A stretch of DNA of 64,000 bases from an uncultured delta proteobacterium (GTDB lineage: Bacteria; Desulfobacterota; Desulfomonilia; Desulfomonilales; Desulfomonilaceae), in assembly GCA_963789265.1 (NCBI GenBank), contig CAWBKB010000001.1, forward strand, positions 2,432,001 to 2,496,000, in the 5' to 3' direction. This document shows, one piece after another, positions 793-61,088 of the stretch. The notes below the pieces were generated by a model. It did no database searches. It saw only the letters and a list, made by a program, of their open reading frames with translations, and had not been told where the DNA came from. The position numbers were made by a program, and so were the translations under genes. Position 1 is the stretch's first letter, and each line of letters opens with the position of its first letter.

Positions 793-3700
793 TTACAATT
801 TCGCTTCCATCATTCGTTCGTGCAACCGCCGAGACTGCAAGGCGAATGCTTCCAATCTCGCTTCAATAATCTGAGGAAATGCATTCCCATCGGTTTCAAT
901 AGCCAGAAACGGGAGTTTTTGATTCTTGTTCAACAAAGACTTCCGGCCACGGTCATGGCCGTTGGTTTGTGAAAGGAGGGCCAATTTCTCACCGGAAGTG
1001 AATTTTTCCGAGAGAATTGATTCAGCTACTCTGCTGGGCATACAACCGAACGGCCCGATAGAGATGATCCCGCATGCAGGATGAAGGATTTCGTGAAGGG
1101 CCGCGCCCACCGTCAGAATCGCCTCGCCAGTGAGCATCGGTGAAACGAATTTCTCCCCTGCGTGGATAAGATCCTCAACGTAAAGGGTCTCGTGAAAGAA
1201 CAGGCCCGACGGAGCAAACAGATGTCGAATCTTTCGGTCAAAATGCCGTTTCACAAAATACCGAATCCAGAAAGGAATGTCCGGCTGGCCTTCTATGCGA
1301 TTCTTTATGAGCCAATCGACATATTTTATCCATTCGCTGGTCTGAGAAGTTCGCACAATGAATCCACGGTCTGCCATCTTTTCAACCAGCTTCTGCAAAG
1401 AGATGGGATCATTTCGCACGTATATCTCGCCGATGAGCGAGATCTTTGGGATCTCCTCGTACGGCATCTTCAGAGGGATACCGGCCAACGTTTGAGCCGA
1501 GGATCGAATCTGAACGCGGATCTCTTTCCACGAACGATGGACGACTTGCACAAGAGAATCCCATTCACGATAAAATATCTCCAGAGCCGATTCCCGATCC
1601 GCGGCCGCGGCCATTAGCGTGGACCAGATCTCATACATCACGTCACCGATGATAATGGCCCGCCATGCGGGTAAAGTGAAACGATCTCCCAATCCCATAT
1701 ACCCGTTCGCCGAATTCAACGTGAGCACAGCCGCGTCGGGGATTTGGTATCTTTCGATGAGGCGACGAGAAAACACATTGTACTGGCCGAACCGGCACGG
1801 ACCACCCGCTCCGGGCATGAAATAGGCGGTCACTTCACCCGACGGCCTTTCACGCCAGAAATAGTTGAGCATAGACCCTACAGTGGTTTGGAGAGGTAAA
1901 CACTCTTTGCAGGTAGAGTTCCCGCGACCGATCTTGAGCACTTCATCGTCCGCAGGCGGCAGGCCATGAGCGTTAATCCCGACCTTCTTGAAGGTTTGGA
2001 CGAGCGCCTGATGAGCGAAGCGGCCCATTGCGGGCAAGACGACTCGGACATTGGGGTCGGTAAGGGCTAGCTTTCTCCCGTCAGCGGTAGCAACGACCGG
2101 TTTTCCATCGACGATTGCAGCGACCGCGGCCCGAAACTCTTTCCGGGTCGCGGGAAGTTGCTTCTTGCTTTCAAGCTCTACGTAGTACCTTACAATATCG
2201 AGAAAAGCCTCTATACGTGTTTCAAGTCCGGCGTCCGCGGTGTGACTGTCGAGTTCCAGAGTCAGCGAGGGCTTACGCCCCATTTCTTCTCGGAAATATC
2301 CCACCACGAAGGAGTCCGGTCCGCACGAAAAGTTGCTGATATAAGTCCCGAACAGCCTCGGGTGATTCTTGACGAACCGGGCAGCCTTCAGAATCATCCT
2401 GCCCATGGACCAGTACATAGTATCCTCGTCGTCGAAGGTTTGGTCTTCGTAGGGCAGCATGTCAAACGGTATTATCCGATAACCCCTTGACGCGAATTTA
2501 GCCGGTATGCCTTTGTTAGCCTCACCTGCGAAGGCATTGTAGGGTCGGCCGAAAAGTACGATTGCAAGGGCGTCGCGATCTTCTTCAAGCTCTTGCAGCA
2601 TTTTTGCGCCCGAAGCGCGCATCTCTTCTCTGCAAGCGGCCTGAGCCTCCAGCGCTTCCCTGAATGCCCGCAACCCATCGGCCCGCGAGCGACCCAACTC
2701 CAAAGCAACCTTGATAAATTCATCGGTTCTCGGTTCGAAACCTCGGCTAAGATCCAGATAAGGAGTGACCACCTTCTTGGACTGCAAGCGCTCAAAGGTA
2801 CTCTTCAGGTAAAAGGCTTCCCCTTGAACGAAAACGCAGGTACAGGTGTTGGCGTTCTCGCTGTCGGTGGGTACGCCTCTTATGTGCGGAAGAAAGAGTA
2901 TTTCAGGTTCCTTGTCCAGGAGGTTCGCCATGAACCCATGAGCTATTTCCACAGGGAAACAGAAAGCTGCACCCTGCTGATCGACCCCTGCCGCTTCTAC
3001 TGAGTCGGGCAATACCAACCGGTATCCCAGCGTCTTGAAAAAGGCATTAAAGAACGGGAAATAGGTATTTACGAGGAACGAACGGTTCATGCCGATTGTT
3101 GGCCGGTTATCCACCACGCCGGCGGCATCGAGATCGCGAAAAACGATTCTTTGGCGATGGTCCACCATGTCGAGGGCGCTCTTGTCGAATTCCAAGTGAC
3201 GGATAAGATTTACGTACCGGTTACAAGCACCGCCAAAGGGGTACGTTTTCCCCTCTATCTCAATCCGAGCAATTTCACACCTTCGGTCACATTTTTCTTT
3301 CCCGCCGCCGCACACAAAAGGGTTCTTGTAGACCACGTCACGAGCGGCCAGTCGGTTGAGGTCAAAAGAAGCCTCGTTCAGCAGTCCGACTGCAATTCGC
3401 CTTTCCACTTCGAGTGCCACCCCGAATGCGCCCATGAGTCCGGGTTCGGGTGGGACAACAATTTCTTTTCCGGTGAGCGCGGACATGGCCGCAGGAATTG
3501 CCTCGTTGTAGCAGACCCCGCCCTGCATAAAGACCTTTTTTCCAACCGGCCTATTGCCTTTGACTCGGTTCGAGTAATTCATGCAGATGGAATACACTAA
3601 GCCTGCTACGATATCGTTTACGGGGATCCCCTCCTGTGCTGCATTTTTTATGTCAGACCCTATGAAAGCGGCGCACTGATCGTTGAAGTTTGGAGGATTT

Positions 3701-5079
3701 TGGCCCGTATATGCCACCGAGCCGATGTCGGTAACTTTGAGCCCGAGACTCTCTTTAGCCGACTCCTCCAGGAATGAGCCCGTCCCAGCGCTGCACGCTT
3801 CATTCATTGCGTAGTCGCTGGGGACCCCGTTGGTAATGTACGTATATTTCGCATCCTGGCCCCCGATTTCGAAAATGGTATCCACCTGAGGGTCAAAGTG
3901 CACTGCCGCGGCGGCATGCGCTATGATCTCGTTGAGCACGCCGTCGGTCATTGCGTGAAGTCCGGAAATCTGCCGACCCGATCCGGTAACTCCCAATCCT
4001 ATGATGCTTATGGGGACATCAATCTGTTGGGCGAGGCTGCTGTAGACTTTCCGGGAAGCTCCAACCGGATCGCCGTCGGTTCGAAGGTAGTCGGCTGCCA
4101 GTATAGCCTTATCGCGGCAGCGCATGATTACCCCCTTGGTTGTAGTGGACCCCACATCCAGACCCAACACCGTGCGGTCGCCGGCTTCAGCTTTTCCCCG
4201 AGGCCGATCTTCGAAACGGACCATGTGCCGAAATTCCGACAAGGGCTTGAGGTATGAGAAGGCAGACCCTTTATTCTGATAGACATCATCGGGGCCGGTG
4301 TAAGGGACAGTAGGATTATCCAGAGCCCACAAAGCAGCCCCAAGTGCTTCAAAATAGGGAGACTCTTCGGGGATGTGAAGGTCTTCAATCTCCTTGGCGA
4401 GATAATGCATCATGGTCTGATTACGGGATGAACCGCCGACGAGAAGTACAGACTTCTTCGGCAGCTTTTTCAGCAACTCGACCACTTTGGCGGCCATCAT
4501 CTTGGCGAGGCCGGCCACCACCTGCCCCTTCGGGATGCCCTTGTTCAGAGCGTGAGTGCAGTCACTCTTGCAGAAGACGGAACACCGGCCCGAGACCTTG
4601 TGTGGGTGGTCGGATATTCCGAGCTTGGCCACGTCCTCAAGGGTAATGTTCATCCTCCGGATTTGTTGGAGAAAGAACTCACCTGTGCCGGAAGCGCATT
4701 TGTTACCGGTTTGTATTCCCTGGATTTGCCCGTCTTCATCCAGGTGGTACACGAGAAATGTCTCTCCTCCCGCGCTGACGACCACTCGATAAGAATCATC
4801 CTTGCCGAGTATATGTGCCACAGCTCTCTCGACTGCCTCGGGTTCGGATATGGTAGTCAACCTGATAAAATTAATGAATTTTCGTCCAGTGACTGCTATC
4901 GGGATGTCACGAGCTTGAGGGATCTCTTCAAGTGCATCGAGCAGGGTTTTCCTGGGGTTCCCCTCATGGGTGATCGTCGAGGCACCAATTACCTCGATCA
5001 CATCGTCATCCTTGCGCAGGCGCACCATGCCGAGCGTGGAGGCTCCCAAACAAATACCCAGAGCTTCCATGAGCAACAC
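793..5079 (-). CDS. CoA-substrate-specific enzyme activase (two BadF/BadG/BcrA/BcrD ATPase domains plus DUF2229/dehydratase-like domains)
   Basis: GNKCASGTGEF, CSVFCKSD, DVGSTTTK, EIGGQDAK, MNEACSAGTGSF, NFSCGPDS, GPCRFGQY, GPFGCMP. Confidence 0.9.
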   Translation of the reverse strand: MLLMEALGICLGASTLGMVRLRKDDDVIEVIGASTITHEGNPRKTLLDALEEIPQARDIPIAVTGRKFINFIRLTTISEPEAVERAVAHILGKDDSYRVVVSAGGETFLVYHLDEDGQIQGIQTGNKCASGTGEFFLQQIRRMNITLEDVAKLGISDHPHKVSGRCSVFCKSDCTHALNKGIPKGQVVAGLAKMMAAKVVELLKKLPKKSVLLVGGSSRNQTMMHYLAKEIEDLHIPEESPYFEALGAALWALDNPTVPYTGPDDVYQNKGSAFSYLKPLSEFRHMVRFEDRPRGKAEAGDRTVLGLDVGSTTTKGVIMRCRDKAILAADYLRTDGDPVGASRKVYSSLAQQIDVPISIIGLGVTGSGRQISGLHAMTDGVLNEIIAHAAAAVHFDPQVDTIFEIGGQDAKYTYITNGVPSDYAMNEACSAGTGSFLEESAKESLGLKVTDIGSVAYTGQNPPNFNDQCAAFIGSDIKNAAQEGIPVNDIVAGLVYSICMNYSNRVKGNRPVGKKVFMQGGVCYNEAIPAAMSALTGKEIVVPPEPGLMGAFGVALEVERRIAVGLLNEASFDLNRLAARDVVYKNPFVCGGGKEKCDRRCEIARIEIEGKTYPFGGACNRYVNLIRHLEFDKSALDMVDHRQRIVFRDLDAAGVVDNRPTIGMNRSFLVNTYFPFFNAFFKTLGYRLVLPDSVEAAGVDQQGAAFCFPVEIAHGFMANLLDKEPEILFLPHIRGVPTDSENANTCTCVFVQGEAFYLKSTFERLQSKKVVTPYLDLSRGFEPRTDEFIKVALELGRSRADGLRAFREALEAQAACREEMRASGAKMLQELEEDRDALAIVLFGRPYNAFAGEANKGIPAKFASRGYRIIPFDMLPYEDQTFDDEDTMYWSMGRMILKAARFVKNHPRLFGTYISNFSCGPDSFVVGYFREEMGRKPSLTLELDSHTADAGLETRIEAFLDIVRYYVELESKKQLPATRKEFRAAVAAIVDGKPVVATADGRKLALTDPNVRVVLPAMGRFAHQALVQTFKKVGINAHGLPPADDEVLKIGRGNSTCKECLPLQTTVGSMLNYFWRERPSGEVTAYFMPGAGGPCRFGQYNVFSRRLIERYQIPDAAVLTLNSANGYMGLGDRFTLPAWRAIIIGDVMYEIWSTLMAAAADRESALEIFYREWDSLVQVVHRSWKEIRVQIRSSAQTLAGIPLKMPYEEIPKISLIGEIYVRNDPISLQKLVEKMADRGFIVRTSQTSEWIKYVDWLIKNRIEGQPDIPFWIRYFVKRHFDRKIRHLFAPSGLFFHETLYVEDLIHAGEKFVSPMLTGEAILTVGAALHEILHPACGIISIGPFGCMPSRVAESILSEKFTSGEKLALLSQTNGHDRGRKSLLNKNQKLPFLAIETDGNAFPQIIEARLEAFALQSRRLHERMMEAKL

Positions 5080-5213
5080 TCCCTTTTTTGCTTACGGGTG
5101 ATTCTGTATAGGAATAACTTAAACTACTAGTATAAACGAGCCGCACATGACCGGCAAGACTTACTCAGCAAGGCGGGCAAATCGTTAATTCGCGCTGGAG
5201 AATCGCTCCAAAT

Positions 5214-5867
5214 TCAATGAAAGTACTCGTAAATCCCCAGCGTAATCAGAATCAACCCGGAAATTCGGCCGGCAAACTTTCCAAACCAATGCACGCCGGA
5301 ATATTGCCCGAACTCTATCCCAAACCAAATCGTGAGAATGCTAAGTGCCGCTGTGAATGCTACCATCAAGGCCACATCGAGTCTCAACAGGCCCGCGCCG
5401 ATCCCATTGCTCAAATTATTCAACGATAATGCCAGGGCCAGCAAGAATCCTTCCCTCAGGTCGATGTGCCCGGAAAAATCCGCGTCAGCGAGAAATGGAT
5501 GATCGAGAATCGCAAGCATCTTCCTGAGACCCGACTGATTGGAAAGCGTCGTCTCTTGAAACTGCTGGGGCCCATCGCTTTGTAACTCATCCCGTCGAGA
5601 AATCTCCTGAGCAAAGACCCAAACTCCTGTGCCTCCAATCATGAGAGCGCCCAGGGCAGTCGCCACATTTTGATTTATGAGGCGGCCTATTTCGTTGCCG
5701 GCGGCCATCGAAAGATAAGTTCCGAAAGATGTGACGATAGCAATAAGCAAATTAGCGTTGAAAGGGATATTTATCTTTCTGACTCCGTAGGACGTACCAA
5801 CTCCCACGTTATCAAGGTTGCTCGACAGGGCAAGCAAAAAGATAGAAATGATATGTAGATTGGTCAT
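5214..5867 (-). CDS. YtaF/MntP-family membrane protein (putative Mn2+ efflux family)
   Basis: Duplicated motif ALSSNLDNVGVG / ALSLNNLSNGIGAG, about six hydrophobic helices, central ADADFSGHID loop. Confidence 0.8.
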   Translation of the reverse strand: MTNLHIISIFLLALSSNLDNVGVGTSYGVRKINIPFNANLLIAIVTSFGTYLSMAAGNEIGRLINQNVATALGALMIGGTGVWVFAQEISRRDELQSDGPQQFQETTLSNQSGLRKMLAILDHPFLADADFSGHIDLREGFLLALALSLNNLSNGIGAGLLRLDVALMVAFTAALSILTIWFGIEFGQYSGVHWFGKFAGRISGLILITLGIYEYFH

Positions 5868-5884
5868 TCTTCTCTCTAATGAGA

Positions 5885-6298
5885 TTAGCCGGGCGCGCTG
5901 TCTTCGGTCTCGTCCTTCTTTGTGTCGGCCCTTTTTCTCTCTTTATGCTCTACTAATCTCGGTTTCGGATGTGCGTCAGCGCCCGCCCCTTGCGCAGGAC
6001 GTGCCTTTTCCGTCGCCTCCGATTCCTTTTCCTTGACCGCGCTCACTTTCCGAGCCGACGGTCGCTTCTCTTTGCTTACGGCCGCGGACCGCCCTTCCCT
6101 TCGGCCTTCGCAAACCTCCGCGCAAGTTTGCCGTCCCGTTTCGTACAGCAGGAACCCGCTCTTTAGAATCGCCTTTAGCAACGGCCTCACAGTGTACCAT
6201 GCCAACGGCACAACCACAGGCGCTGCGAGTAAACCGGCGCCGACTGCGACACCGGTCCAGATATCGCCACTCTTCGGTCTGAAATCCCAGATTGCCAT
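5885..6298 (-). CDS. DUF5132-like small membrane protein with a basic/charged tail (paralogue of 12856-13122)
   Basis: WTGVAVGAGLLAAPVVVP...RPLLKAILKSGFLLYE closely parallels the 13 kb protein. Start placed at ATG 6298 after a purine-rich RBS. Confidence 0.75.
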   Translation of the reverse strand: MAIWDFRPKSGDIWTGVAVGAGLLAAPVVVPLAWYTVRPLLKAILKSGFLLYETGRQTCAEVCEGRREGRSAAVSKEKRPSARKVSAVKEKESEATEKARPAQGAGADAHPKPRLVEHKERKRADTKKDETEDSAPG

Positions 6299-6383
6299 GT
6301 GCTGCCCCTCTCTACCGGACTGTTTTGGGCGCCACGACACCGCAATCAGGTATGCTATCAGACATAAGGCTGTCGTCAGCCGC

Positions 6384-6411
6384 TGACAATGTCAAGTTAG
6401 GATTCTGTCAA
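6384..6411 (-). promoter_or_regulatory. Possible 11-bp-periodic direct-repeat box upstream of the DUF5132-ytaF unit
   Basis: Minus strand TTGACA-N5-CTAACT-N5-TTGTCA; a weaker match than the other boxes. Confidence 0.35.
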
Positions 6412-6441
6412 TCGCGTTTGTCATGACACCAAATGAAAGAC

Positions 6442-6624
6442 TCAGTCTTCAGTCAACTCGTCAACAATAAGAGAACCGATTTTACTCTCCGCGGCTTCTA
6501 TTTCTTCTATCTCCTTGCAAGTCGTCGGGCTTAGGAGGCCGTAGGTCTCGACGATCTTTTCCAGATATTCGGCGATTACTCGTCCCAGGTGCATCCCCAC
6601 CGACAATCCGATCCAAAACTCCAT
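6442..6624 (-). CDS. Small protein with N-terminal GxxxGxxxG helix and acidic tail
   Basis: MEFWIGLSVGMHLG...; GGGGA upstream of the ATG; co-oriented with the cluster genes. Confidence 0.5.
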   Translation of the reverse strand: MEFWIGLSVGMHLGRVIAEYLEKIVETYGLLSPTTCKEIEEIEAAESKIGSLIVDELTED

Positions 6625-6750
6625 GATGTTTCCCCATAAGGTCTGAGATGTGAGAGGCCCGCGCCGTAGCGATTTACCAGCCCCACGCGGCGCGCTGAGC
6701 CAGTCCTACCGCGTATATGCCGGGTATGCTGTACCTGCCGGCCAGGTCTA

Positions 6751-6841
6751 ATACCGATTCGCATTCAGAATCCCCCCGTCCCCCCTTTACTAAAGGAGGG
6801 TTAGAGGGGATTTTCTCACAATCTTGAAAGCGAATCGGTAT
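6751..6841. mobile_element. MITE-like element with 17-bp terminal inverted repeats, enclosing a CCCCCTTT/AAAGGAGGG palindromic repeat
   Basis: ATACCGATTCGCATTCA / TGAAAGCGAATCGGTAT (16/17 match). Related ends occur near 20868, 28614, 33598 and 56293. Confidence 0.7.
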
Positions 6842-7008
6842 AAAACCGGACGAGCAGCCTTCCCGACGAAGAGTTGCTTTCCGGTCTTACCCCATTGTCG
6901 CCACAGTCCCTCGCCCCATGTAGACATTTTGCGGACCCCAACACGGCGTCGCAAGCCTAAGATCATGCAAAGACATGAAATCCTCAAAGAAGACTTCCAC
7001 ATTAAGAA

Positions 7009-7037
7009 TTAATTTGTTGCTAATACTAGCCTAACAT
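7009..7037 (+). promoter_or_regulatory. 11-bp-periodic direct repeats (OmpR/PhoB-type box) upstream of the HMA2-like gene
   Basis: TTAATTT (7009), CTAATAC (7020), CTAACAT (7031). Confidence 0.5.
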
Positions 7038-7129
7038 TTTGTCGGCATTAGTTTAAACAGATTCATACGACGAAATTCCTCGTCGTCCAAATAGTCGTAC
7101 TGCTGGTCAGAATCCAAAGGGAGAAAGGC

Positions 7130-7501
7130 ATGAGCTATTATCTCCACGACGTGCCGGGGCGTATGAGAATCCAGATTCCGGCGTTGAAGAGGAATTCCGA
7201 ACGGGCGCAAGATGTTCAGGAGCTGTTGGACAGCCTCTCGGGCGTCAAATCGACCTCCGTGAACCCTGTTACAGGGAGTGTGATAGTTCTTTACGATCCG
7301 CAAGTAGTGCATTCTTCGACCATTCTGACACTTCTTTCCAGGGAAAGGCACATTGACATCGCAAGAATAATCTCAAGCCGTCAACATCTCGAGGCTGGCC
7401 TTTCCAAGGCGGGCCGCGCAGCGTCCAAAGCCCTCATAGGTATCGCATTGGATCTAGCGTTAGAGGGTTCTCCCTTATCGATTCTCACAGCCTTCATTTA
7501 G
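7130..7501 (+). CDS. HMA2-like (Cys-less heavy-metal-associated fold) protein
   Basis: YLHDVPGRMRI...GVKSTSVNPVTGSVIVLYDP; RBS GGAG. Confidence 0.8.
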   Translation: MSYYLHDVPGRMRIQIPALKRNSERAQDVQELLDSLSGVKSTSVNPVTGSVIVLYDPQVVHSSTILTLLSRERHIDIARIISSRQHLEAGLSKAGRAASKALIGIALDLALEGSPLSILTAFI

Positions 7502-7522
7502 AGTTTCCCGCTAAAATAGGCC

Positions 7523-7680
7523 GCACCTAAATTCGCTCCTTGTCCCCAATTCTCGAGCGGGCGCAGCATCCTGCGCCCCCACCTTCGTAACGTGACTGGC
7601 CTCTTGGTGGCGACGGGCATCTTGCCCGTCATTTCTAATGGACAGGCTGGAAGCCTGTCCCACCAATCTAAATTCGGTGC
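7523..7680. repeat. Cluster of short palindromic REP-like repeats between convergent genes
   Basis: GGGCGCAGCATCCTGCGCCC, GACGGGCATCTTGCCCGTC and GGACAGGCTGGAAGCCTGTCC, bracketed by GCACCTAAATT / AAATTCGGTGC. Confidence 0.7.
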
Positions 7681-7751
7681 CAACTCTCTCGAAAACCACT
7701 ATAAACGAATTTCGATGCGGTCCGCGGTCGTTGATGAAACGCGCCGAGCAA

Positions 7752-8942
7752 CTACGACCTTAGTAGATCTGCTTTGTCGGTGGCCTCCCACGGCAAATCC
7801 ATATCTGTCCGTCCGAAATGCCCATACGCGGCAAGTTTGCGATAGAAGCCATCACTGGACATCGATGGTAGCTTTGTCAAATTGAATTGTCTGACAATCC
7901 CGCCTAGCCTGAAATCGAAATGCTTCTCCACAAGGGCACTGATTTTGTCATCGGAAAGCTTGCCCGTTCCCATAGTCTCAACCTGGATGCTGACCGGCCC
8001 TGAAAGTCCTATCGAATAGCTAAGCTGGACCTCGCACTGTTCGGCAAGCCCTGCGGCGACAACATTCTTGGCCGCGTAACGAGCTGCATACGCACCGACC
8101 CTGTCAATTCTTAACGCATCTTTTCCGCTCAGAGCCGATCCGCTGTTTCTGGAATAACCTCCGTAAGTGTCGATGGCATTCTTTCGACCTGTCAGTCCTG
8201 AGTGCACCGACGGCCCGCCCATTTTCAAAGGGCCTCCCGGATTGATCAGGATACTGGTGTTCCCGTCAGGGACTATAGGCTCACCCTCAAATGCCTCTTT
8301 TATGACCGTTTCCATCACATCGTCTCGAAGTCGGTCCAGTTTGGGATGGGTCCGATCTATCTGGCTTGAATTGATCGTGATACTGTGGATCCTGTGCGGA
8401 ATGCGATTGTCGTATTCGACTCCGACCTGGGTGGTGCCGTCAGGCGCCAAGTATGGCAATACGCCTTGCAGCCTCACCTCGGAGAGCCTCTTCGAAAGCT
8501 TGTGGGCAAGCCATATCGGAAGCGGCATAAGCGTCGGTGATTGATTGCAAGCAAAACCGAATAACGTTACCTGGTCGTATGCCACGACTCTATCTATGTC
8601 CTCTTCGGACACATCGTCTTCGGCAACCAGGCAGTGCTGCTCCGGCGTCATTTCTTTGAGGCTGGTCAATATGCTGCAAGTCTTGAAGTTGAATTCATGG
8701 TCAATGTACCCGATCCGCCGGATAACCTTTCTGGCCACATTAGGAAAATCGACCTTCACGCCGGATGCAAATCTTGCAGCAATGAACACCACTGACAGTG
8801 ACACTGCGCACTCGGCGATAACCCGGGCGCATAAGTCATGCTCGAGAAAACGGTCTATGATGGCATCGCTTATCTGATCGCACAGCTTGTCCGGGTGTCC
8901 TTCGGTGACCGATTCGGACGTGTGGATGAAGTGCTTTTTCAT
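7752..8942 (-). CDS. Divergent S-adenosylmethionine synthetase (MetK) paralogue
   Basis: TSESVTEGHPDK, GLTGRK, DTYGG, SGKD and AAYGHFGR are present, but GAGDQG is VAYDQV and the substrate residues are changed. Start overlaps the ATPase stop (ATGA, 8939-8942). Confidence 0.85.
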   Translation of the reverse strand: MKKHFIHTSESVTEGHPDKLCDQISDAIIDRFLEHDLCARVIAECAVSLSVVFIAARFASGVKVDFPNVARKVIRRIGYIDHEFNFKTCSILTSLKEMTPEQHCLVAEDDVSEEDIDRVVAYDQVTLFGFACNQSPTLMPLPIWLAHKLSKRLSEVRLQGVLPYLAPDGTTQVGVEYDNRIPHRIHSITINSSQIDRTHPKLDRLRDDVMETVIKEAFEGEPIVPDGNTSILINPGGPLKMGGPSVHSGLTGRKNAIDTYGGYSRNSGSALSGKDALRIDRVGAYAARYAAKNVVAAGLAEQCEVQLSYSIGLSGPVSIQVETMGTGKLSDDKISALVEKHFDFRLGGIVRQFNLTKLPSMSSDGFYRKLAAYGHFGRTDMDLPWEATDKADLLRS

Positions 8943-11900
8943 TTGTTGTCCGCCGATGTTTTTTTGGTGACTTCGTTTATGAGCAGAGGAACTACTGACG
9001 CAGCCCCGATTACCAACCCGTCAAAAAGTGTTATCGGGGTTGTGCCCAGCAGTGTTCTCAGCCCGGGAACAAGCTGAGAAGCCAGTTGCAGCCCGAGTGA
9101 GCCAACGACCGCCACATTAAGATATTTATTCGGCGCGGATTTCCGGCGATCGAAGATGGTGCGCGTCTCTGAACGACAACTCACGGCGTGCAGGATCTGA
9201 GACGTGGTAAGGCTTTGAAATGCCAACGTACCCGCGGCCGGGCCCATGCCGTATTTCATAACACCGTATCCGTACGCGGCAAGCGAAGTCGCGGTCATCG
9301 TCGCAGCCTCGAAGCCAATTCTCTTGAAGTCGTTTGTCTTCACAATAGGCGCGGTGGAATCCCGCGGCGGGTGACTCATTACGTCAGGTTCCGCAGGTTC
9401 CAAAGCCAAGGCAAGTCCCGGGAATATGTCCGATACAAGGTTGATCCAGAGCAGTTGCATGGCATTAAGAGGGTATCCCAGTCCTAGAGCGCCTGCGACA
9501 AACATTACTTGGATTTCGCTGAAGTTGGTGGCAAGAAGATATCGGAGCGTCTTTCTGATATTATTGTAAATTGTTCGCCCATCACTTATCGCGATGATCA
9601 AGGTCTCCAGGTCGTCTTCTTCAAGCACCACATCAGCCACGTCTCGAGCCACATCAGTTCCAGCCCGCCCCATTGCTATACCAATGTCCGCGGCCTTGAG
9701 TGCAGGCCCGTCGTTAATGCCGTCGCCGGTCATGGCCACCACCTTGCCGGAACTCTGAAGGGCCTGAACAATCTGGAGCTTATTCGACGGGCTGACCCTG
9801 GAAAAGACGTGGACCTCCTTGCTCAGAGCTTTTAATACCGCAGGCTCGGTGGTTGTCAGGTGTGTCGAATCCAGGATTTCCAGCGGCCTGCCGTTGCTGA
9901 GCCCCAATTCCTTTCCCACAGCATACGCGGTCGGGCTCTGGTCTCCGGTGACCATCACAGTTTCCAGCCCCGCTTCATGAAACACCACTATGGATTCTTT
10001 GACTCGATTCCGGATAGGGTCGGCCATGCCGACCAGGCCCAACCAAGTGAAGCCATTCTCTGTCTCCGAGTGCTCATCGGAATTCCGGACGGCGAACGCG
10101 ACCCCCAGCACCCGCAATGCATTGCCGGCCATATTGTCATTTTCGGCTTCGACAATGTCTCTGTCCTTATCGGTAAGCGCGATGGCAGCCCCATTCCGGA
10201 TCTGATATTTGCACTTGGCGAGGACTTCTACGGGATTCCCCTTCAAAGCCACCAATACTTCCTTATCCGCGTATACGTGTTCAGTAACCATGAATTGGCG
10301 ATCATCGGACCGATACTGAATATTCAACACCGGATGTTGATCCCTTAGTGCCCGAACGTCAATGCCGCCGTTAATCGCCATGTAGATCAGAGCGTTTTCG
10401 GTTGGGGAGCCATTCAAAACGTACTGCCGATCTCTGAACTCGATTTGAGTCTCATTGCAGAGCACGCATATATGAATGAGTTTCAAGACCTCGTCGGACT
10501 GGGAGGGGTCAAATAGCTTTTCGCGGCTATAGAAGCTATTTTCACTTATCCGTATCTTCTCCATCCCGGAATAAATCGTCAGCACGGTCATTCGGTTATG
10601 GGTAATTGTGCCGGTTTTATCGAAACATATCGTCTGGACCGAGCCTAGCGTACAGATTGCATCGAGATTCCTTATGAGGACTTTGTGCTTCCTCATATTA
10701 TTGATCCCAAGCGCAAGCGTGGTCGTCGCAACAGCCGGCAGTCCTTCGGGAACTGCCGCGACGGCAAGAGAGATGGCTGTCTTGAGCATCTGAAGAAAGC
10801 CGTTCCCCCTGATGAGCCCCATAAAGAAAACTAACCCGCAGACGGCCCCGGAGATCAATACCAGTTGGTTGCCGATCTTCGTCAACTGTCGCTCTACGGG
10901 GGTTTCCGGGGCTTCGGCTTCAGCAAGAAGACTTTGGATCTTGCCTACTTCCGAGAACATGCCGATTGCTACGACAACCGCCAACCCCTGGCCCCCGGTG
11001 ATGAGCGTGCCCGAATAAACCATGTTGGTCCGGTCCGCGAGGGGAACCTTGGGGCCCTTAAGCGGAGATGAATTCTTGGACACCGGCATGCTTTCACCGG
11101 TGAGCACCGACTCGTCCACGGTAAGACGGGTTGCCTCGATAATTCTCGCGTCCCCTGTCACATACGTCCCTGGTTTCAGCAAAAGGATATCCCCCACGAG
11201 GACCTGTTCCGCGGGGATTTCCTGCAAACTGCCTTCCCGTATTACCTGTGCGGTTGGGCGGATCAACCTCTTCAACGAGCTTATTGTCTTTTCCGCTTCA
11301 TTTTCCGTAACAAAGCCGATTGCCGCGTTAATGCCCACCACAACCACAATTATGACGGCATCCGCAAGCCCCCCAGTAACCACGGAAAGACCGGCAGCCG
11401 CAGCCAGGAGCGCGACCGGGAAAGAGTTGAATTGATCGAAGAAAATGCCCAGCTTGGAGCGAGACAGAGGCTCGGGAAGAACATTAAGGCCGTATTCGCG
11501 GCGATTTTCCTGGGAGGCTTGGGCTGACAAGCCTCGTTTTCTGGAGGATTTCAGCGATGAAAGGACGAATTTCACATTGAGCAGGTGCCAGGGTTTAGAC
11601 TTATGAGCTTTGGAGAGGCCATACTCCGGCCGATCTTTCCCGGTGCGAACAACCCTGAGATCGGTTACAACGGCGAGTGCACCGACTTCAGTAGAGCCGG
11701 GGCCGCCCTTGGCCTCGTTATCCCTGGTCTCTCGCAGATAGGCTATCACAACACTCTCCACGCTCAGGGCTATCTTGCGAGGATTACAGTCAGGATTGAA
11801 AATTACCAGCACGTTTCCGGTCAAAATGTTGGCCGAAACGCGCCTGACGTCTTCGTCCTGCGGGAGTAACATTTCCAAGCGGTATTTGAGTGACACGCAT

Positions 11901-11965
11901 CGATAGAGGCCTTCGACTTTGTATCGCACTCTGCCCGGAATATGGTTATGAACTGTTTCTAACAA
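8939..11965 (-). CDS. Type-IIA-like (Ca2+/Mn2+-class) P-type ATPase with an N-terminal HMA2-like domain
   Basis: LTGES, AVPEGLP, DKTGT, TGDGIND, TM5 ATNFSE, TM6 WINLVSD. N-terminus VHNHIPGRVRYKV...VSANILTGNVLVIFNP. Confidence 0.92.
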   Translation of the reverse strand: MLETVHNHIPGRVRYKVEGLYRCVSLKYRLEMLLPQDEDVRRVSANILTGNVLVIFNPDCNPRKIALSVESVVIAYLRETRDNEAKGGPGSTEVGALAVVTDLRVVRTGKDRPEYGLSKAHKSKPWHLLNVKFVLSSLKSSRKRGLSAQASQENRREYGLNVLPEPLSRSKLGIFFDQFNSFPVALLAAAAGLSVVTGGLADAVIIVVVVGINAAIGFVTENEAEKTISSLKRLIRPTAQVIREGSLQEIPAEQVLVGDILLLKPGTYVTGDARIIEATRLTVDESVLTGESMPVSKNSSPLKGPKVPLADRTNMVYSGTLITGGQGLAVVVAIGMFSEVGKIQSLLAEAEAPETPVERQLTKIGNQLVLISGAVCGLVFFMGLIRGNGFLQMLKTAISLAVAAVPEGLPAVATTTLALGINNMRKHKVLIRNLDAICTLGSVQTICFDKTGTITHNRMTVLTIYSGMEKIRISENSFYSREKLFDPSQSDEVLKLIHICVLCNETQIEFRDRQYVLNGSPTENALIYMAINGGIDVRALRDQHPVLNIQYRSDDRQFMVTEHVYADKEVLVALKGNPVEVLAKCKYQIRNGAAIALTDKDRDIVEAENDNMAGNALRVLGVAFAVRNSDEHSETENGFTWLGLVGMADPIRNRVKESIVVFHEAGLETVMVTGDQSPTAYAVGKELGLSNGRPLEILDSTHLTTTEPAVLKALSKEVHVFSRVSPSNKLQIVQALQSSGKVVAMTGDGINDGPALKAADIGIAMGRAGTDVARDVADVVLEEDDLETLIIAISDGRTIYNNIRKTLRYLLATNFSEIQVMFVAGALGLGYPLNAMQLLWINLVSDIFPGLALALEPAEPDVMSHPPRDSTAPIVKTNDFKRIGFEAATMTATSLAAYGYGVMKYGMGPAAGTLAFQSLTTSQILHAVSCRSETRTIFDRRKSAPNKYLNVAVVGSLGLQLASQLVPGLRTLLGTTPITLFDGLVIGAASVVPLLINEVTKKTSADNK

Positions 11966-12040
11966 CTGATTAGCCTTGTCTCGGCGGGCTCGCCCTACCT
12001 CATGAAAACGCGAGACGCCTGCTTTAGTCCTCTACTAGTT

Positions 12041-12254
12041 CTGGTTCCCAGGTTGTGCCATATAGGGGCTAACTTAACGATTTCCCCCCCTTCGTAAAGG
12101 GGGGTTAGGGGGGATGTTTGTCTAACTCCTTGAAAATCCCCCCTAATCCCTCTTTAGAAAGGAGGGACTTTGATGGCCCTTAGCCCGTTGGACCTCTTCA
12201 GAGATATCGAGATGCTCTTAAGTTAGCACCTATCAGGCAGAGCCCGGGAACGAG
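12041..12254. repeat. Nested repeat: GTTCCCAGG-family palindrome > MITE-like IR pair > CCCCCCTT/AAAGGGGGG repeats
   Basis: Outer CTGGTTCCCAGGTTGTGCC / GGCAGAGCCCGGGAACGAG; inner ATAGGGGCTAACTTAA / TTAAGTTAGCACCTAT. Confidence 0.75.
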
Positions 12255-12305
12255 AAACGCTTAAGTTAAGCTACTTAGCAATATATTGACGCCAACGCGA
12301 TGCTT

Positions 12306-12827
12306 TCAATCTCCATTTGCATCGTCCGCTTCCAATGCAAAGTCTTCCCCTTCGTCCCACTCCTCAATCTGTGCTCGCGTGAATACGCCCAACGCGTAAT
12401 AAAATGCCGTGTACCATGCAGGCATGACAATATTTCCTCGTGCAATCTGCCAGACTCCGGAAATTACCAGGCTGAGAAAAATGAGACTGGGAATATCGAC
12501 TTCGCCGCCGGTCGCATTCTTAAGATATCTATTATACACTTGAAACGTATCGGCTACATTGGTGAAAAGAGGCTTCTGTGGCCGTCCGGAGCGTCCCAAA
12601 ACAAACAGCTCGTTTTCTCTCGCAAAGTCAGCGATGGTCTTTCTTTCGCCTTCGTAGGAAATCAGGGCGCTTCCTATGTTAGGATTCACCCTGATTTCCT
12701 TTACCCCGGGGCAGCCGGAAAGCCGCTCCATCAAATTAGAAAAATATGAGACATCCCTTCTCTTAGAAGGAATCTTGATTCTTAGCCTGCGGGCCATCCG
12801 ATGAGACACATGAGCCTTCGGAATCAT
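12306..12827 (-). CDS. HMA2-like domain protein with C-terminal membrane helices (FezC-like architecture)
   Basis: HVSHRMARRLRIKIP...GVKEIRVNPNIGSALISY, then hydrophobic LIFLSLVISGVWQIARG...PAWYTAFYYALG and an acidic tail. Confidence 0.8.
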   Translation of the reverse strand: MIPKAHVSHRMARRLRIKIPSKRRDVSYFSNLMERLSGCPGVKEIRVNPNIGSALISYEGERKTIADFARENELFVLGRSGRPQKPLFTNVADTFQVYNRYLKNATGGEVDIPSLIFLSLVISGVWQIARGNIVMPAWYTAFYYALGVFTRAQIEEWDEGEDFALEADDANGD

Positions 12828-12855
12828 TTCTCCTCTCTTTGGTTCCCGTGTTCGT

Positions 12856-13122
12856 CTAAGCTCCTTTTGTCTTCGCCGGAGTCAGCTCAGCCTGCACTTC
12901 AGACTTCGCTTCGGCAGCCAGATCTTCTACTACCTCTGCGACCTCGGCAATCATTTCTCTGCATTTTTCGTAGAGCATTAAGCTGCCCTTTATGCCCGCC
13001 TTTGCAACCGGCCTTGCCGCGGTGGCTATCATCGGAATTACCACGGGGGCTACGAGTAAGCCCACCCCGATCGCGACGCCAGTCCACACACTGCCTTTAG
13101 GTGTGAAATTCCAACTGGCCAT
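12856..13122 (-). CDS. DUF5132-like small membrane protein (GxxxG helix plus amphipathic helix)
   Basis: TGVAIGVGLLVAPVVIP...RPVAKAGIKGSLMLYEK...EDLAAEAKSE; strong RBS AAGGAGG. Confidence 0.85.
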   Translation of the reverse strand: MASWNFTPKGSVWTGVAIGVGLLVAPVVIPMIATAARPVAKAGIKGSLMLYEKCREMIAEVAEVVEDLAAEAKSEVQAELTPAKTKGA

Positions 13123-13205
13123 TTGACGCCTCCTTCTTTCCGATCGTTCGGTAGGTCATCAACCTACTATAATAGCGTAAATCATTTCCCAGATTATGTC
13201 TATTT

Positions 13206-13233
13206 TGTTAGCTTATCATTAGCATTGTGTTAA
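13206..13233 (-). promoter_or_regulatory. 11-bp-periodic direct repeats upstream of the DUF5132-HMA2-ATPase-metK unit
   Basis: Minus strand TTAACA-N5-CTAATG-N5-CTAACA. Confidence 0.55.
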
Positions 13234-13364
13234 AAATGACGGCTTCGAGAAGTATTTTTAGAAATTCATTTTCCTGTACGGCCCCGGACCTGCTGAAAGT
13301 CGCTCAACCCCTTTGCTGAAGAGGAACGGCGAATCCGAAAGGGATGCAAAATTCTTCCCCCGAA

Positions 13365-13393
13365 TTTAACACCTTTTTAACATTTGTCTAATC
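13365..13393 (+). promoter_or_regulatory. Pho-box-like 11-bp-periodic direct repeats facing phoB
   Basis: TTTAACA (13365), TTTAACA (13376), TCTAATC (13387). Confidence 0.55.
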
Positions 13394-13971
13394 GTAGCTC
13401 AACAATCTTTGTTGAGAATGACTTCGCGGATTAATTCTCCCCGGCGGACAAAGGACGATTTACCGCACGGCCCCCCACAACTGTTAATCGACGGCTGAGC
13501 GGGATCGGTGTCTCTTCCGGCCACCGGGGTCTCCTCGACTCGGAGCATTTTTTCGAGAGCGGCGGCATAAGGTCCCCGCACTGCATTGCCCCTTGGCTCG
13601 CTGCCTTCGTATCCCCGGGGAAACGCATACTCGGCGCGCGAGGGAGATATTTGTTTTGTTCGCAATGACCAGGAGGAAATATAACTTGAATCTCCATACT
13701 TCTAGCCGAGATTTCGGCATTGTGCCTCTAATAGATCGCGATATTGCACTAGGGGAGTCCACGGAGATTCGACAAGTTCGTCGCTGTACAGACTTTGACG
13801 TATCGATAGAGATTCGTCTGTTGGTTAGCTTGTGATGACGGTAGGGAGGTCGGCGGGCTCGCCATCCCGTCAGCCAGTGGTGGTGAGCCCCCTCCCAATC
13901 CACTGCCGGCCTCCCAACATTTCTGGCTTTCCAAACACGTGTAATGCAAGGCAGAGAACAAGCGGGTGTGA

Positions 13972-14661
13972 ATGGCCAAAGAAAAAGTTCTAGTCGTCGA
14001 TGACGACGAAGATATCTTAGAGCTGGTAACGTACAATCTGACAAAGGAAGGGTATCACGTTTCTTCAGTTCTTTCCGGGGAACAGGCTTTAAAGAAGGCA
14101 AAGGAGGAACACCCTGACGCAATACTGCTCGACCTCATGCTGCCCGGGGTAGATGGCCTGGATGTCTGCCGGGAATTGAAGAACGATCCTGCTACCAGGT
14201 ACATACCCGTTCTGATGGTAACCGCAAAAGGAGAGGATGCCGACATAGTCAGCGGCCTGGAATTGGGTGCGGACGATTACATCACCAAACCTTTCAGCCC
14301 CCGAGTCCTTTTGGCCCGCCTGAAAACCGTTCTACGGCGGAACAAGCCTCAAGAGTCTGAAGAGCTCGCGGTCGTGAACCTGCACGGCCTCACCATCGAT
14401 CCTAACCGTCACCAGGTCCTCCTTGAGAGGATGCCCATCGTTCTCACCACCACGGAGTTCAGGATCCTTCATTTTCTGGCGCGGCGCCCCGGTCGAGTCT
14501 TCAGCCGAGACCAGATAATAAACGCGGTGAAGGGGGAGAATTATGCTGTAACGGAGCGCTCTGTCGACGTACAAATTGTTAGTCTGAGAAAGAAGCTCGG
14601 CAGGTTTGGAGACGCGATAGAGACGGTCAGAGGGGTGGGCTATAGGGTGAAAGAGGAGTAG
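13972..14661 (+). CDS. phoB: OmpR/PhoB-family response regulator (PhoB/PhoP-like)
   Basis: VVDDDED, LLDLMLPG, GADDYITKPFS and winged helix IETVRGVGY; adjacent to phoU. Confidence 0.85.
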   Translation: MAKEKVLVVDDDEDILELVTYNLTKEGYHVSSVLSGEQALKKAKEEHPDAILLDLMLPGVDGLDVCRELKNDPATRYIPVLMVTAKGEDADIVSGLELGADDYITKPFSPRVLLARLKTVLRRNKPQESEELAVVNLHGLTIDPNRHQVLLERMPIVLTTTEFRILHFLARRPGRVFSRDQIINAVKGENYAVTERSVDVQIVSLRKKLGRFGDAIETVRGVGYRVKEE

Positions 14662-44091: not shown

Positions 44092-44281
44092 ACGACCAAA
44101 ATCCCCCCTAACCTCCCTTTATGAAAGGGGAGAATAGATCGGTAAGTCAGCGCCTATCGCCGAGCCCGCGAATTATGAATAGCAATCATCTGATGGAATG
44201 GAACTGAGGCACCATACCACCCGACGAACTGTTCCGGCAAGGCAAATCGTCAATTTCAGAGCCATTGGGGAGGGAAGAGAC

Positions 44282-49541: not shown

Positions 49542-49667
49542 TCGTCGTTTCACTCCTCGCAATGACATTCCCGCTACCTCTCATTGCGAGTCCACGGGAC
49601 GCGGGACGAAGCAATCTTTTCTTCGGTGCCAAATTCTTCACGTTACCGCATTTGCTGCATGGTGTAC

Positions 49668-58765: not shown

Positions 58766-58869
58766 TCTGCACTGTCCATCGACGCTCACACACCCTACCG
58801 AAGAGTGTCGTTGTCCTGGGATTGTCTTGGGAGTACCACCCCAGACAACATACCCAAGGAGGCAGATCG

Positions 58870-60977: not shown

Positions 60978-61088
60978 ACAACCTATCACCGGGCCGGACC
61001 ACCCGGCCCAGTCAAAACAATCTGAAAAACTAGGCGCTCTGTCCCAAATAATCAGAAAAAATCAGTCAATTTAATGTGAAAAACAACA

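What the first reader, a model, noticed from the sequence alone, without database searches (positions are those of the whole stretch)
7752..8942. MetK paralogue with a rewired active site: methionine/adenine pocket lost, triphosphate/metal ligands mostly kept
Seen, by manual alignment to E. coli MetK recalled from memory (mature numbering): Met-binding E55>R (GGEI>AARF), Q98>M (KQSPDI>EMTPEQ), D238>H (PMGDCG>PSVHSG) and K269>R; adenine-site R229/F230>P/L; K165>T; GAGDQG>VAYDQV. Retained: H14, D16, E42, D118, D163, R244, K245, K265, D271. The ORF is full length and intact. Known: MetK has an intrinsic tripolyphosphatase activity. Inference: this is not an ordinary SAM synthetase but possibly a tripolyphosphate/polyphosphate-handling enzyme, an adenosyltransferase for another acceptor, or a ligand-sensing partner of the ATPase to which it is translationally coupled.
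Basis: partly seen in the sequence, partly recalled or inferred. Interest (0 to 1): 0.85.

Follow-up and report, generated by a model that had tools for sequence, protein, structure and literature searches.

The report
MetK-like partner of a calcium-type pump
This gene encodes a relative of the enzyme that makes S-adenosylmethionine which has lost its methionine pocket but kept its triphosphate and metal site, and it is always found fused in operon to a calcium/manganese-type ion pump, which points to an undescribed job beside that pump.

Summary
ORF 7752-8942(-) is an intact 396-aa MetK homologue.

The core changes are not drift. D238H and K269R occur in 10 of 10 close members. E55 and Q98 are lost in 10 of 10. 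H14 (9 of 10), D16, K17, E42, R244, K245, K265 and D271 are kept.

The group is separated from canonical MetK by one branch with 100/100 support. It still separates at 98 without the signature columns. It spans at least six phyla.

In 9 of 9 related loci a CoBaHMA-headed, SPCA/LMCA1-like P-type ATPase ends directly upstream. This was seen in 0 of 71 canonical metK loci. A 4-nt stop/start overlap occurs in 7 of 9 loci and in the window.

CoBaHMA and DUF5132 proteins recur around the pair. Both families also flank the cyanobacterial Ca-carbonate marker gene ccyA.

Most likely this is a non-SAM-forming partner of the pump that binds or hydrolyses a triphosphate.

Not tested: the activity, binding to the pump (the complex tool never ran), and whether a canonical metK lies elsewhere in this genome.

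The parts
7752..8942 (-). MetK-like protein (396 aa). It has the three-domain MetK fold. The methionine/adenosine pocket is lost and the triphosphate/Mg/K ligands are kept.
8939..11965 (-). P2-type cation ATPase (1008 aa from the TTG at 11965) with an N-terminal CoBaHMA (Pfam HMA_2) domain. DKTGT, TGES, TGDQ and GDGIND motifs are readable in the translation. The best solved relatives are SPCA1 and Listeria LMCA1.
   Evidence: HMA_2 scores only 21.7 bits here (cut-off 30). It scores 32.6-36.9 bits in the homologues of L002, L006 and L007, and PF19991 is precomputed for many homologues.
8939..8942 (-). ATGA overlap of the ATPase stop and the MetK-like start (translational coupling).
   Evidence: The same 4-nt overlap is present in 7 of 9 related loci.
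12306..12827 (-). CoBaHMA domain protein (173 aa) with two C-terminal hydrophobic helices, lying upstream of the ATPase.
   Evidence: HMA_2 58.3 bits, profile 9-151 of 154. Sequence read. Homologues are in L002, L003, L004, L006, L007 and L010.
12856..13122 (-). DUF5132 small protein (88 aa) with an N-terminal hydrophobic segment.
   Evidence: 38.8 bits, cut-off 25. DUF5132 is also present in L003 and L006.
7130..7501 (+). CoBaHMA single-domain protein (123 aa), convergent with the MetK-like gene.
   Evidence: HMA_2 54.2 bits. Homologues are in L003, L006, L008 and L010.
7612..7630 (.). GC-rich hairpin between the two convergent genes, terminator-like.
   Evidence: This is only a consensus match, and the total number of such sites is not above the shuffles.
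5214..5867 (-). MntP-like putative manganese efflux protein. It may belong to the locus.
   Evidence: A 47%-identical copy lies directly after the MetK-like gene in L006. It was seen in only 2 of 10 loci.
13972..14661 (+). OmpR-type response regulator, divergent from the cluster. It may be the regulator.
   Evidence: A 61.5%-identical copy lies beside the cluster in L006. It was seen in only 2 of 10 loci.

Best explanation
The gene encodes a member of an old, multi-phylum offshoot of the MetK family that no longer makes S-adenosylmethionine. The residues that hold methionine and adenosine have been given up. The residues that hold the triphosphate chain, two Mg2+ and K+ are still under strong selection. 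D238 is always His and K269 always Arg, so the former methionine site is more positively charged.

The protein is made from the same message as a CoBaHMA-headed P2-type pump (Ca2+/Mn2+-like), and its translation is coupled to the pump's. It evolves in step with the pump.

My reading is that it is the pump's cytoplasmic partner. It would bind, and probably hydrolyse, a metal-loaded triphosphate: inorganic tripolyphosphate or polyphosphate, or the triphosphate end of a nucleotide. In that way it would feed or gate cation transport within a CoBaHMA/DUF5132 cation-handling module.

Shown: the residue pattern, the separate clade, the gene linkage and the co-variation.
Inferred: loss of SAM synthesis, triphosphate binding or hydrolysis, physical contact with the pump, and the identity of the ion.

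My own odds:
- not a SAM synthetase, about 0.85
- functionally tied to the pump, about 0.9
- triphosphate or polyphosphate is the ligand, about 0.5
- stable complex with the pump, about 0.4
For: 1. Residue pattern (window plus 9 loci).
- Position 55 is R/K/H in 10 of 10.
- Q98 is present in 0 of 10.
- D238H and K269R are each 10 of 10.
- D16, K17, E42, R244, K245, K265 and D271 are each 10 of 10, and H14 is 9 of 10.

2. Deeper sample (29 clade and 82 canonical sequences).
- 59 columns are conserved and identical in both groups, including the phosphate and metal ligands.
- 28 columns are conserved in canonical MetK but free in the clade (Q98, S99, D101, I102, G115, G117, D118, K165, F230 and others).
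- Only 5 columns are conserved in both but different (D238H, K269R, F262L, L27V, V270I).

3. Residue roles. PMC1282579 (passages read) assigns Q98, D238 and E55 to methionine; D163, R229, F230 and S99 to adenosine; and H14 as the acid. It says that even archaeal enzymes keep the substrate-binding set.

4. Separate clade. Support is 100/100 in the careful tree of 66 rows and SH-aLRT 98 after removing 42 signature columns.

5. Linkage. The ATPase lies directly upstream in 9 of 9 clade loci and 0 of 71 canonical loci. The 4-nt overlap is present in 7 of 9 loci and in the window.

6. Selection. In 32 gene pairs, identity to the window co-varies between the two genes (Spearman 0.95). The MetK-like protein is the better conserved of the two in 32 of 32 pairs.

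7. Size of the group. There are more than 120 clusters at 90% identity that are 66-94% identical to the window protein. About 23 of the 150 best 50%-identity representatives carry H238 plus R269.

8. Recalled, not seen here. In E. coli MetK, K165, D118 and D238 mutants lose SAM synthesis but keep tripolyphosphatase activity (Markham laboratory papers). The natural pattern here resembles those mutants.
Against: - No biochemical data exist for any member that I could find.
- The protein still passes the NCBIfam metK equivalog cut-off (376 against 309 bits), and sources name all relatives methionine adenosyltransferase.
- H14, the acid that cleaves C5'-O5' of ATP, is kept. It would not obviously be needed for plain tripolyphosphate hydrolysis.
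- No column is newly conserved in the clade while free in canonical MetK (0 found). There is therefore no clear sign of a new, specific pocket.
- The AlphaFold model is least confident exactly over the active-site loop. Residues 238-268 have pLDDT 31-41, against 61-82 in a canonical control. This could mean disorder rather than a working site.
- Nothing connects tripolyphosphate to this type of pump in the literature I searched.
- No fused ATPase/MetK-like protein was seen among the 150 best representatives (longest 833 aa).
Confidence: 0.45

Rival explanations
1. It is a catalytically silent sensor or scaffold (a pseudoenzyme). It uses the old triphosphate/metal site only to bind ATP, PPi, polyphosphate or a divalent cation, and it switches the pump on or off without turnover.
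For: The pocket is relaxed at 28 columns and no new constraint appears. The model has low confidence over the active-site loop. Tight coupling to the pump suggests a fixed stoichiometry.
Against: All catalytic-type residues of the phosphate site, including H14, R244, K245, K265, D16 and D271, are kept across members only 38-60% identical to each other. That is more than binding alone usually requires.
Confidence: 0.25
2. It is an adenosyl (or other nucleosidyl) transferase that attacks ATP with a different acceptor. The acceptor is probably anionic, since R55, H238 and R269 replace E55, D238 and K269.
For: H14, D163 and the whole triphosphate site are kept. The charge at the former amino-group site is reversed, with H238 and R269 invariant.
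Against: The adenosine contacts are not conserved inside the clade. S99, R229 and F230 vary (F230 is L, F or R), and the GAGDQG loop is free. Position 55 also varies in deep members: R, H, K, S or G.
Confidence: 0.12
3. It is still a working, merely divergent SAM synthetase: a second isozyme dedicated to some local need.
For: It scores above the TIGR01034 cut-off. The fold is identical, with TM 0.85 to 7r3b. H14 and the metal ligands are kept.
Against: All three direct methionine ligands are lost in 10 of 10 members, whereas they are invariant or nearly so in 71 canonical loci. According to PMC1282579 they are kept even in archaeal enzymes.
Confidence: 0.07
4. It pairs with the cell's canonical MetK, since the active sites lie at the dimer interface, and it tunes SAM synthesis in the manner of a prozyme.
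For: The MetK dimer builds each site from both subunits (PMC1282579). 59 columns are still shared with canonical MetK.
Against: The strict linkage is to the ATPase, not to metK. No canonical metK lies in the window or in any of the 9 loci.
Confidence: 0.05
5. It is a decaying duplicate with no function.
For: Many canonical constraints are lost.
Against: The ORF is intact in the window and in all 9 loci. There are more than 120 clusters at 66-94% identity. It is better conserved than its neighbour in 32 of 32 pairs.
Confidence: 0.01

Closest known systems
Canonical bacterial MetK (methionine adenosyltransferase, EC 2.5.1.6; E. coli MetK; PDB 7r3b, 1fug)
   Same: It has the three-domain fold. 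Identity is 41-44% to E. coli and about 43% to 7r3b over the model. The GHPDK motif and the triphosphate, Mg2+ and K+ ligands are kept.
   Different: The methionine ligands E55, Q98 and D238 are lost. The adenosine contacts and the GAGDQG loop are lost or free. The gating-loop region is 5 residues longer, and a 7-residue insert sits near the C-terminus. It forms a separate clade. It is always next to a P-type ATPase.
Separation-of-function mutants of E. coli MetK (K165, D118 and D238 variants; recalled from Markham laboratory papers, not read here)
   Same: The positions concerned are the same: K165 and D118 are free and D238 is replaced, while R244, K245, K265, D16 and D271 are intact.
   Different: Those are laboratory mutants. 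Here the pattern is a natural, selected lineage with His at 238 and Arg at 269.
CoBaHMA/DUF5132 gene neighbourhood of ccyA (calcyanin) in Microcystis aeruginosa PCC 7806, the marker locus for intracellular amorphous Ca carbonate
   Same: The module is the same: DUF5132 small membrane protein(s), a CoBaHMA protein with a C-terminal helical hairpin, a CoBaHMA single-domain protein, and a Ca2+ transporter (passages of bioRxiv 10.1101/2024.07.07.602159; window and loci).
   Different: There the transporter is a CAX antiporter, and the locus has calcyanin and no MetK-like gene. Here it is a P-type ATPase with its own CoBaHMA head plus the MetK-like gene. No calcyanin was recognised, but no model for it was available.
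Ferrosome fezABC cluster (Desulfovibrio magneticus)
   Same: The layout is the same: a small hydrophobic protein, a P-type ATPase whose N-terminus carries an RxR-type basic motif, and an HMA-domain protein with two transmembrane helices (passages of bioRxiv 10.1101/2020.01.10.902569). The ATPase and both CoBaHMA proteins here carry a GRxRxK/Q-type motif.
   Different: FezB is a P1B-6 metal pump. The pump here is P2-type, closest to SPCA1 and LMCA1. The fez text has no mention of adenosylmethionine or MetK (0 occurrences).
SPCA1 / PMR1 and Listeria LMCA1 Ca2+(/Mn2+) ATPases (for the neighbouring pump)
   Same: These are the best solved matches: 480 and 465 bits over residues 127-1003. The best NCBIfam model is the PMR1 type.
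   Different: The pump is below every equivalog cut-off (623 against 798 bits). It has an extra N-terminal CoBaHMA domain of about 125 residues.

Membership tests
MetK / methionine adenosyltransferase (TIGR01034, EC 2.5.1.6) | Three S-AdoMet_synt domains and the MetK fold | tested here: met
   Pfam E-values are 2.8e-32, 7.5e-34 and 3.2e-56. The AF2 model has pLDDT 85.7. Foldseek gives TM 0.85 to 7r3b.
MetK / methionine adenosyltransferase (TIGR01034, EC 2.5.1.6) | Score above the curated equivalog cut-off | tested here: met
   376.1 bits against a cut-off of 309.4.
MetK / methionine adenosyltransferase (TIGR01034, EC 2.5.1.6) | Methionine ligands E55, Q98 and D238 (E. coli numbering; roles from PMC1282579) | tested here: not met
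   The window has R, M and H. The clade has 0 of 10 E55, 0 of 10 Q98 and 0 of 10 D238. Canonical loci have 70 of 71, 71 of 71 and 70 of 71.
MetK / methionine adenosyltransferase (TIGR01034, EC 2.5.1.6) | Adenosine contacts S99, R229, F230 and D163, and the GAGDQG loop | tested here: not met
   Only D163 is kept (D in 8 and E in 2 of 10). S99, R229 and F230 are replaced or variable. The loop reads VAYDQV.
MetK / methionine adenosyltransferase (TIGR01034, EC 2.5.1.6) | Triphosphate/Mg2+/K+ ligands H14, D16, K17, E42, R244, K245, K265 and D271 | tested here: met
   Each is 10 of 10 except H14, which is 9 of 10. All are conserved in the 29-sequence deep sample.
MetK / methionine adenosyltransferase (TIGR01034, EC 2.5.1.6) | Groups with canonical MetK in a family tree | tested here: not met
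   27 clade rows are separated from 39 canonical rows by one branch, with support 100/100 and 98 without the signature columns.
MetK / methionine adenosyltransferase (TIGR01034, EC 2.5.1.6) | Makes SAM from ATP and methionine | not testable with these tools
   This needs an enzyme assay or complementation.
CoBaHMA/DUF5132 cation-handling module (as beside ccyA in Microcystis) | CoBaHMA (Pfam HMA_2) proteins, both with a membrane hairpin and as a single domain | tested here: met
   Window 12306-12827 scores 58.3 bits and 7130-7501 scores 54.2 bits. Such proteins are present in 7 of 9 loci.
CoBaHMA/DUF5132 cation-handling module (as beside ccyA in Microcystis) | DUF5132 small membrane protein | tested here: met
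   Window 12856-13122 scores 38.8 bits. It is also present in L003 and L006.
CoBaHMA/DUF5132 cation-handling module (as beside ccyA in Microcystis) | Calcyanin (ccyA, triple glycine-zipper domain) | not tested
   No profile for calcyanin was available. No Pfam hit suggests it in the window.
Ferrosome fez cluster | P1B-6 ATPase (FezB) with the D[Y/F]SCA and HNxxT motifs | tested here: not met
   The pump is P2-type. Its best matches are SPCA1, LMCA1 and SERCA and the PMR1-type model. The P1B models score far lower.
Ferrosome fez cluster | HMA-domain protein with two transmembrane helices (FezC-like) | tested here: inconclusive
   The architecture is the same, but no FezC sequence was compared.

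The most novel reading that the evidence does not exclude
The CoBaHMA-ATPase, the MetK-like protein, the CoBaHMA hairpin protein and DUF5132 together build an undescribed membrane-bound cation store. It would be a Ca2+/Mn2+ counterpart of the ferrosome or of cyanobacterial Ca-carbonate inclusions, found in anaerobes such as Desulfomonilaceae and Nitrospirota. In it the MetK-derived enzyme has been re-used as a tripolyphosphate or polyphosphate processing step. That step would release the chelated cation to the pump, or supply phosphate for the mineral.
Probability: 0.15. Interest if true: 0.9.

Novelty: new variant of a known kind. Interest (0 to 1): 0.72.

Why it matters
MetK is treated as a one-function, near-universal housekeeping enzyme. 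Annotation pipelines name every member of this clade methionine adenosyltransferase.

A deep, selected lineage that has lost the methionine pocket, and is bound by operon structure to an ion pump, would be the first natural re-use of this fold that I could find. It would also correct a systematic mis-annotation.

It gives a concrete handle on the CoBaHMA/DUF5132 module. That module's role in intracellular mineral formation is open in the papers I read.

It also predicts a new accessory factor for bacterial P2-type ATPases.

Tried and rejected
**Complex prediction**
- I sent ATPase residues 1-200 and 441-800 with the MetK-like protein. The job never ran: the queue was full and the tool was then withdrawn. 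There is no result either way.

**Genome scan**
- The scan for relatives used patterns that canonical MetK also matches.
- Only 9 of the 80 loci kept are of the clade, and none is from a close relative of the window.
- No second scan was allowed.
- As a result I could not test for a canonical metK in the same genome. I also could not test whether CoBaHMA-ATPases occur without a MetK-like gene.

**Other collections and tools**
- Plasmid collection: 189 records matched. All were below 60% identity (best 48.8%) and of the canonical type.
- Rfam on 5000-14000: no riboswitch. The only hit was a chance-level miRNA match.
- Promoter and terminator scan: counts were not above the shuffles.
- ESM Atlas: only generic SAM-synthase clusters.
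- Fused forms: none of the 14 long representatives I scanned joins a clade-type MetK to another known domain. The extras were inteins, pentapeptide repeats and an SRP domain on canonical forms. I did not run the 'longer' search of the search for homologous proteins.

**Literature**
- Five searches found no paper on such a paralogue: MetK with P-type ATPase and paralog; pseudoenzyme; biomineralization; 'MetK-like' and similar terms; tripolyphosphatase.
- The main CoBaHMA paper (Gaschignard et al. 2024, Proteins 92:776) is not held. It may describe the CoBaHMA-ATPase architecture or its neighbours. I know only its abstract, from recall.
Full report
**What is in the sequence.**
- ORF 7752-8942 on the minus strand is open from ATG to stop and gives 396 residues.
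- It carries the three Pfam domains of S-adenosylmethionine synthetase.
- It scores 376 bits on the NCBIfam metK equivalog (cut-off 309).
- Its best solved relative is Lactobacillus plantarum MetK (7r3b, 350 bits).
- I fetched E. coli K-12 metK from its genome record and aligned it. Every residue said to be retained is retained.
- The stop of the upstream ATPase gene and the ATG of this gene overlap as ATGA.

**The changes are conserved, not drift.**
- A protein search gave more than 120 clusters (at 90% identity) that are 66-94% identical to the window protein. Where named, they come from Desulfomonilaceae, Nitrospirota and 'Deltaproteobacteria' assemblies, and all are annotated as methionine adenosyltransferase.
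- Fourteen of them, aligned with E. coli MetK, carry the same replaced motifs.
- The genome scan gave 80 loci. Nine of them (L002-L010, 51-66% identical) carry the pattern. They are from Nitrospirota, Binatia, Acidobacteriota, a Crocosphaera assembly, Thermodesulfobacteriota and a gammaproteobacterium.
- In the window plus these nine:
  - position 55 is R/K/H in 10 of 10
  - Q98 is present in 0 of 10
  - D238H and K269R are each 10 of 10
  - T43C is 10 of 10 and G258S is 9 of 10
  - D16, K17, E42, R244, K245, K265 and D271 are each 10 of 10, and H14 is 9 of 10
- The other 71 loci are canonical: E55 70 of 71, Q98 71 of 71, D238 70 of 71, K165 71 of 71, F230 70 of 71. L069 is aberrant, L040 is cut short, and L050 has Q55.
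K165 is kept in 7 of 10, and D118 is D in only 2 of 10.
- An exhaustive search of 1.84 billion representatives showed that about 23 of the best 150 carry H238 with R269. These are 38-58% identical to the window protein, so the group is deep.

**Pattern of constraint.**
- I compared 29 diverse clade sequences with 82 canonical ones.
- 59 columns are conserved and identical in both, including all the triphosphate and metal ligands.
- 28 columns are conserved in canonical MetK but free in the clade. These are the gating loop (Q98, S99, D101, I102, G105), the GAGDQG loop (G115, G117, D118), K165, F230, H257 and others.
- Only five columns are conserved in both but different (D238H, K269R, F262L, L27V, V270I).
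- No column is newly conserved in the clade.
- According to passages of PMC1282579:
  - methionine is held by Q98, D238 and E55
  - adenosine is held by D163, R229, F230 and S99
  - H14 is the catalytic acid
  - even archaeal enzymes keep the substrate-binding set
- So the substrate pocket has been released from selection while the triphosphate/metal half has not.

**A separate clade.**
- A maximum-likelihood tree of 66 rows (27 clade, 39 canonical) puts the two on either side of one branch. Support is ultrafast bootstrap 100 and SH-aLRT 100, and the split appears in 100% of 200 bootstrap trees. The bootstrap had not fully settled (quick version).
- With the 42 signature columns removed the split stays (SH-aLRT 98).
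- The tree is unrooted, so 'one origin' is not ruled out rather than proven.
- Within the clade the order does not follow the phyla. The Crocosphaera copy sits with the Nitrospirota and Binatia copies, while the canonical Crocosphaera MetK (L029) sits with cyanobacterial MetKs. This suggests transfer of the gene pair. I left out the fragmentary representatives and 47 of the 71 canonical loci to keep the tree small.

**Linkage to the pump.**
- The upstream ORF 8939-11965 is a P-type ATPase of 1008 residues with the DKTGT, TGES, TGDQ and GDGIND motifs.
- It is best matched by the PMR1-type Ca2+ model but lies below every equivalog cut-off.
- It is closest to human SPCA1 and Listeria LMCA1 among solved structures.
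- Its first 60 or so residues match Pfam HMA_2. The score is weak here (21.7 bits) but above the cut-off in homologues.
- A homologous ATPase (40-56% identical, full length) ends directly upstream of the MetK-like gene in 9 of 9 clade loci. It is adjacent in 0 of 71 canonical loci; two of those have weak, distant ATPase matches elsewhere.
- The 4-nt stop/start overlap is present in 7 of 9 loci. L005 has an 80-nt gap, and in L006 the ATPase reading frame is broken.
Some of these contigs are under 7 kb.
- In 32 pairs, identity to the window co-varies between the two genes (Spearman 0.95). The MetK-like protein is the better conserved of the two in 32 of 32 pairs, by 9.7 points on average.

**The wider locus.**
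- On the same strand upstream lie a DUF5132 protein (12856-13122) and an HMA_2 protein with two C-terminal hydrophobic helices (12306-12827).
- Convergent downstream lies a single-domain HMA_2 protein (7130-7501).
- HMA_2 proteins recur in 7 of 9 loci and DUF5132 in 2.
- Other neighbours recur or fit the theme:
  - ArsA-type ATPases with an HSP20-like domain (L003, L010)
  - an MntP-like protein (window, L006)
  - CorA (L002)
  - a Na/Ca exchanger (L007)
  - an OmpR-type regulator (window, L006)
- Passages of bioRxiv 10.1101/2024.07.07.602159 equate HMA_2 with the CoBaHMA domain.
- The same passages describe, beside the Ca-carbonate marker gene ccyA of Microcystis, the same set: two DUF5132 proteins, a CoBaHMA protein with a helical hairpin, a CoBaHMA single domain and a Ca2+/H+ exchanger. 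Three of these are co-expressed with ccyA.
- Passages of the ferrosome preprint describe a similar layout around a P1B-6 pump.
- Neither text mentions adenosylmethionine or MetK (0 occurrences).

**Structure.**
- The AlphaFold model (95-row alignment) has mean pLDDT 85.7 and superposes on MetK structures at TM 0.85.
- Residues 238-268, the loop that carries H247 and the GRK motif, have pLDDT 31-41.
- A canonical control (L070, 64 rows) has pLDDT 91.1 overall and 61-82 in the same loop.
- The loop is therefore hard to model in any monomer but is markedly worse here. I give this little weight.

**What it most likely does.**
- Loss of SAM synthesis is an inference from the residue pattern. I put it at about 0.85.
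- A working link to the pump is shown by gene order, coupling and co-variation. Physical binding is an inference only.
- The retained half of the site binds triphosphate, two Mg2+ and K+ in MetK.
- From recall, not read here: E. coli mutants at K165, D118 and D238 lose SAM synthesis but keep tripolyphosphatase activity.
- I therefore favour a metal-dependent protein that binds or hydrolyses tri- or polyphosphate, or an NTP triphosphate, and that feeds or gates the pump.
- A silent sensor is the main rival.
- A new adenosyl acceptor is less likely, because the adenosine contacts vary inside the clade.
- The transported ion, Ca2+ or Mn2+, is inferred from homology only.

**Limits.**
- No canonical metK was found in the 64-kb window, and I could not search the rest of the genome.
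- The complex prediction never ran.
- The key CoBaHMA paper could not be read.
- Five full-text searches found no description of this clade. Subscription journals are largely outside that library.

Noticed in passing
L002:952-1683, L003:6209-6907, L008:3134-3769: A protein of about 210-245 aa, rich in V, G, A and E, with a repeated motif and no Pfam match. It lies directly upstream of the ATPase in 3 of 9 loci (55-72% identical to each other) and is absent from the window. It has the look of a coat or amphipathic-helix protein.
   Followed up: partly
L003:11627-12793 and L010:4068-5324: An ArsA/Get3-type ATPase with a C-terminal HSP20-like domain sits next to the CoBaHMA single-domain gene in 2 of 9 loci.
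   Followed up: no
L006:6913-9950: The ATPase upstream of an intact MetK-like gene is split over three reading frames (three tblastn pieces). This is either a sequencing error or a broken pump.
   Followed up: no
window 11873-11965: The public gene call for this ATPase (P0273, 977 aa) starts 31 codons downstream of the TTG at 11965 and cuts into the CoBaHMA domain. Homologues of 1008-1030 aa cover the full N-terminus.
   Followed up: partly
window 6792-6807, 12096-12111, 12140-12155, 44105-44120: A short C-rich/G-rich intergenic repeat (CCYCTAACCCYCCTTT and its partner arm) occurs 4 times, against 0.2 expected. Two copies flank the locus, in the gaps at 12.1 kb and 6.8 kb.
   Followed up: partly
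window 14881-15594; L003:2387-4378; L006:3955-5460: Phosphate-related genes lie within 10 kb of the pair in 3 of 10 loci: PhoU in the window, PhoX in L003 and PhoH-like in L006. This is a weak hint of a phosphate link.
   Followed up: no
P0140 (representative): This is an intermediate MetK form (E55D, Q98M, D238N, K269R, K165S). It branches between the clade and canonical MetK in the quick tree.
   Followed up: no
L069:10001-11157: A Chloroflexia MetK homologue has canonical residues up to K165 but an aberrant pattern after it (H238, D245, R269). It may be a frameshift or another divergent form.
   Followed up: no
window 793-5079: A 1428-aa fusion of two BcrAD/BadFG-type ATPase modules with DUF2229 (a CoA-enzyme activase type) lies downstream on the same strand.
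   Followed up: no
window 49029-49568, 52290-55202, 56991-58103, 58822-60171, 61052-62905: Two adenylate-cyclase/AAA_16 proteins, one of which also has MalT-like TPR repeats, a separate TPR-only protein and a truncated Ser/Thr kinase lie around an rve-type integrase gene.
   Followed up: no
P0148, P0220 (representatives): These canonical-type MetK proteins are interrupted by inteins carrying LAGLIDADG homing endonucleases.
   Followed up: no
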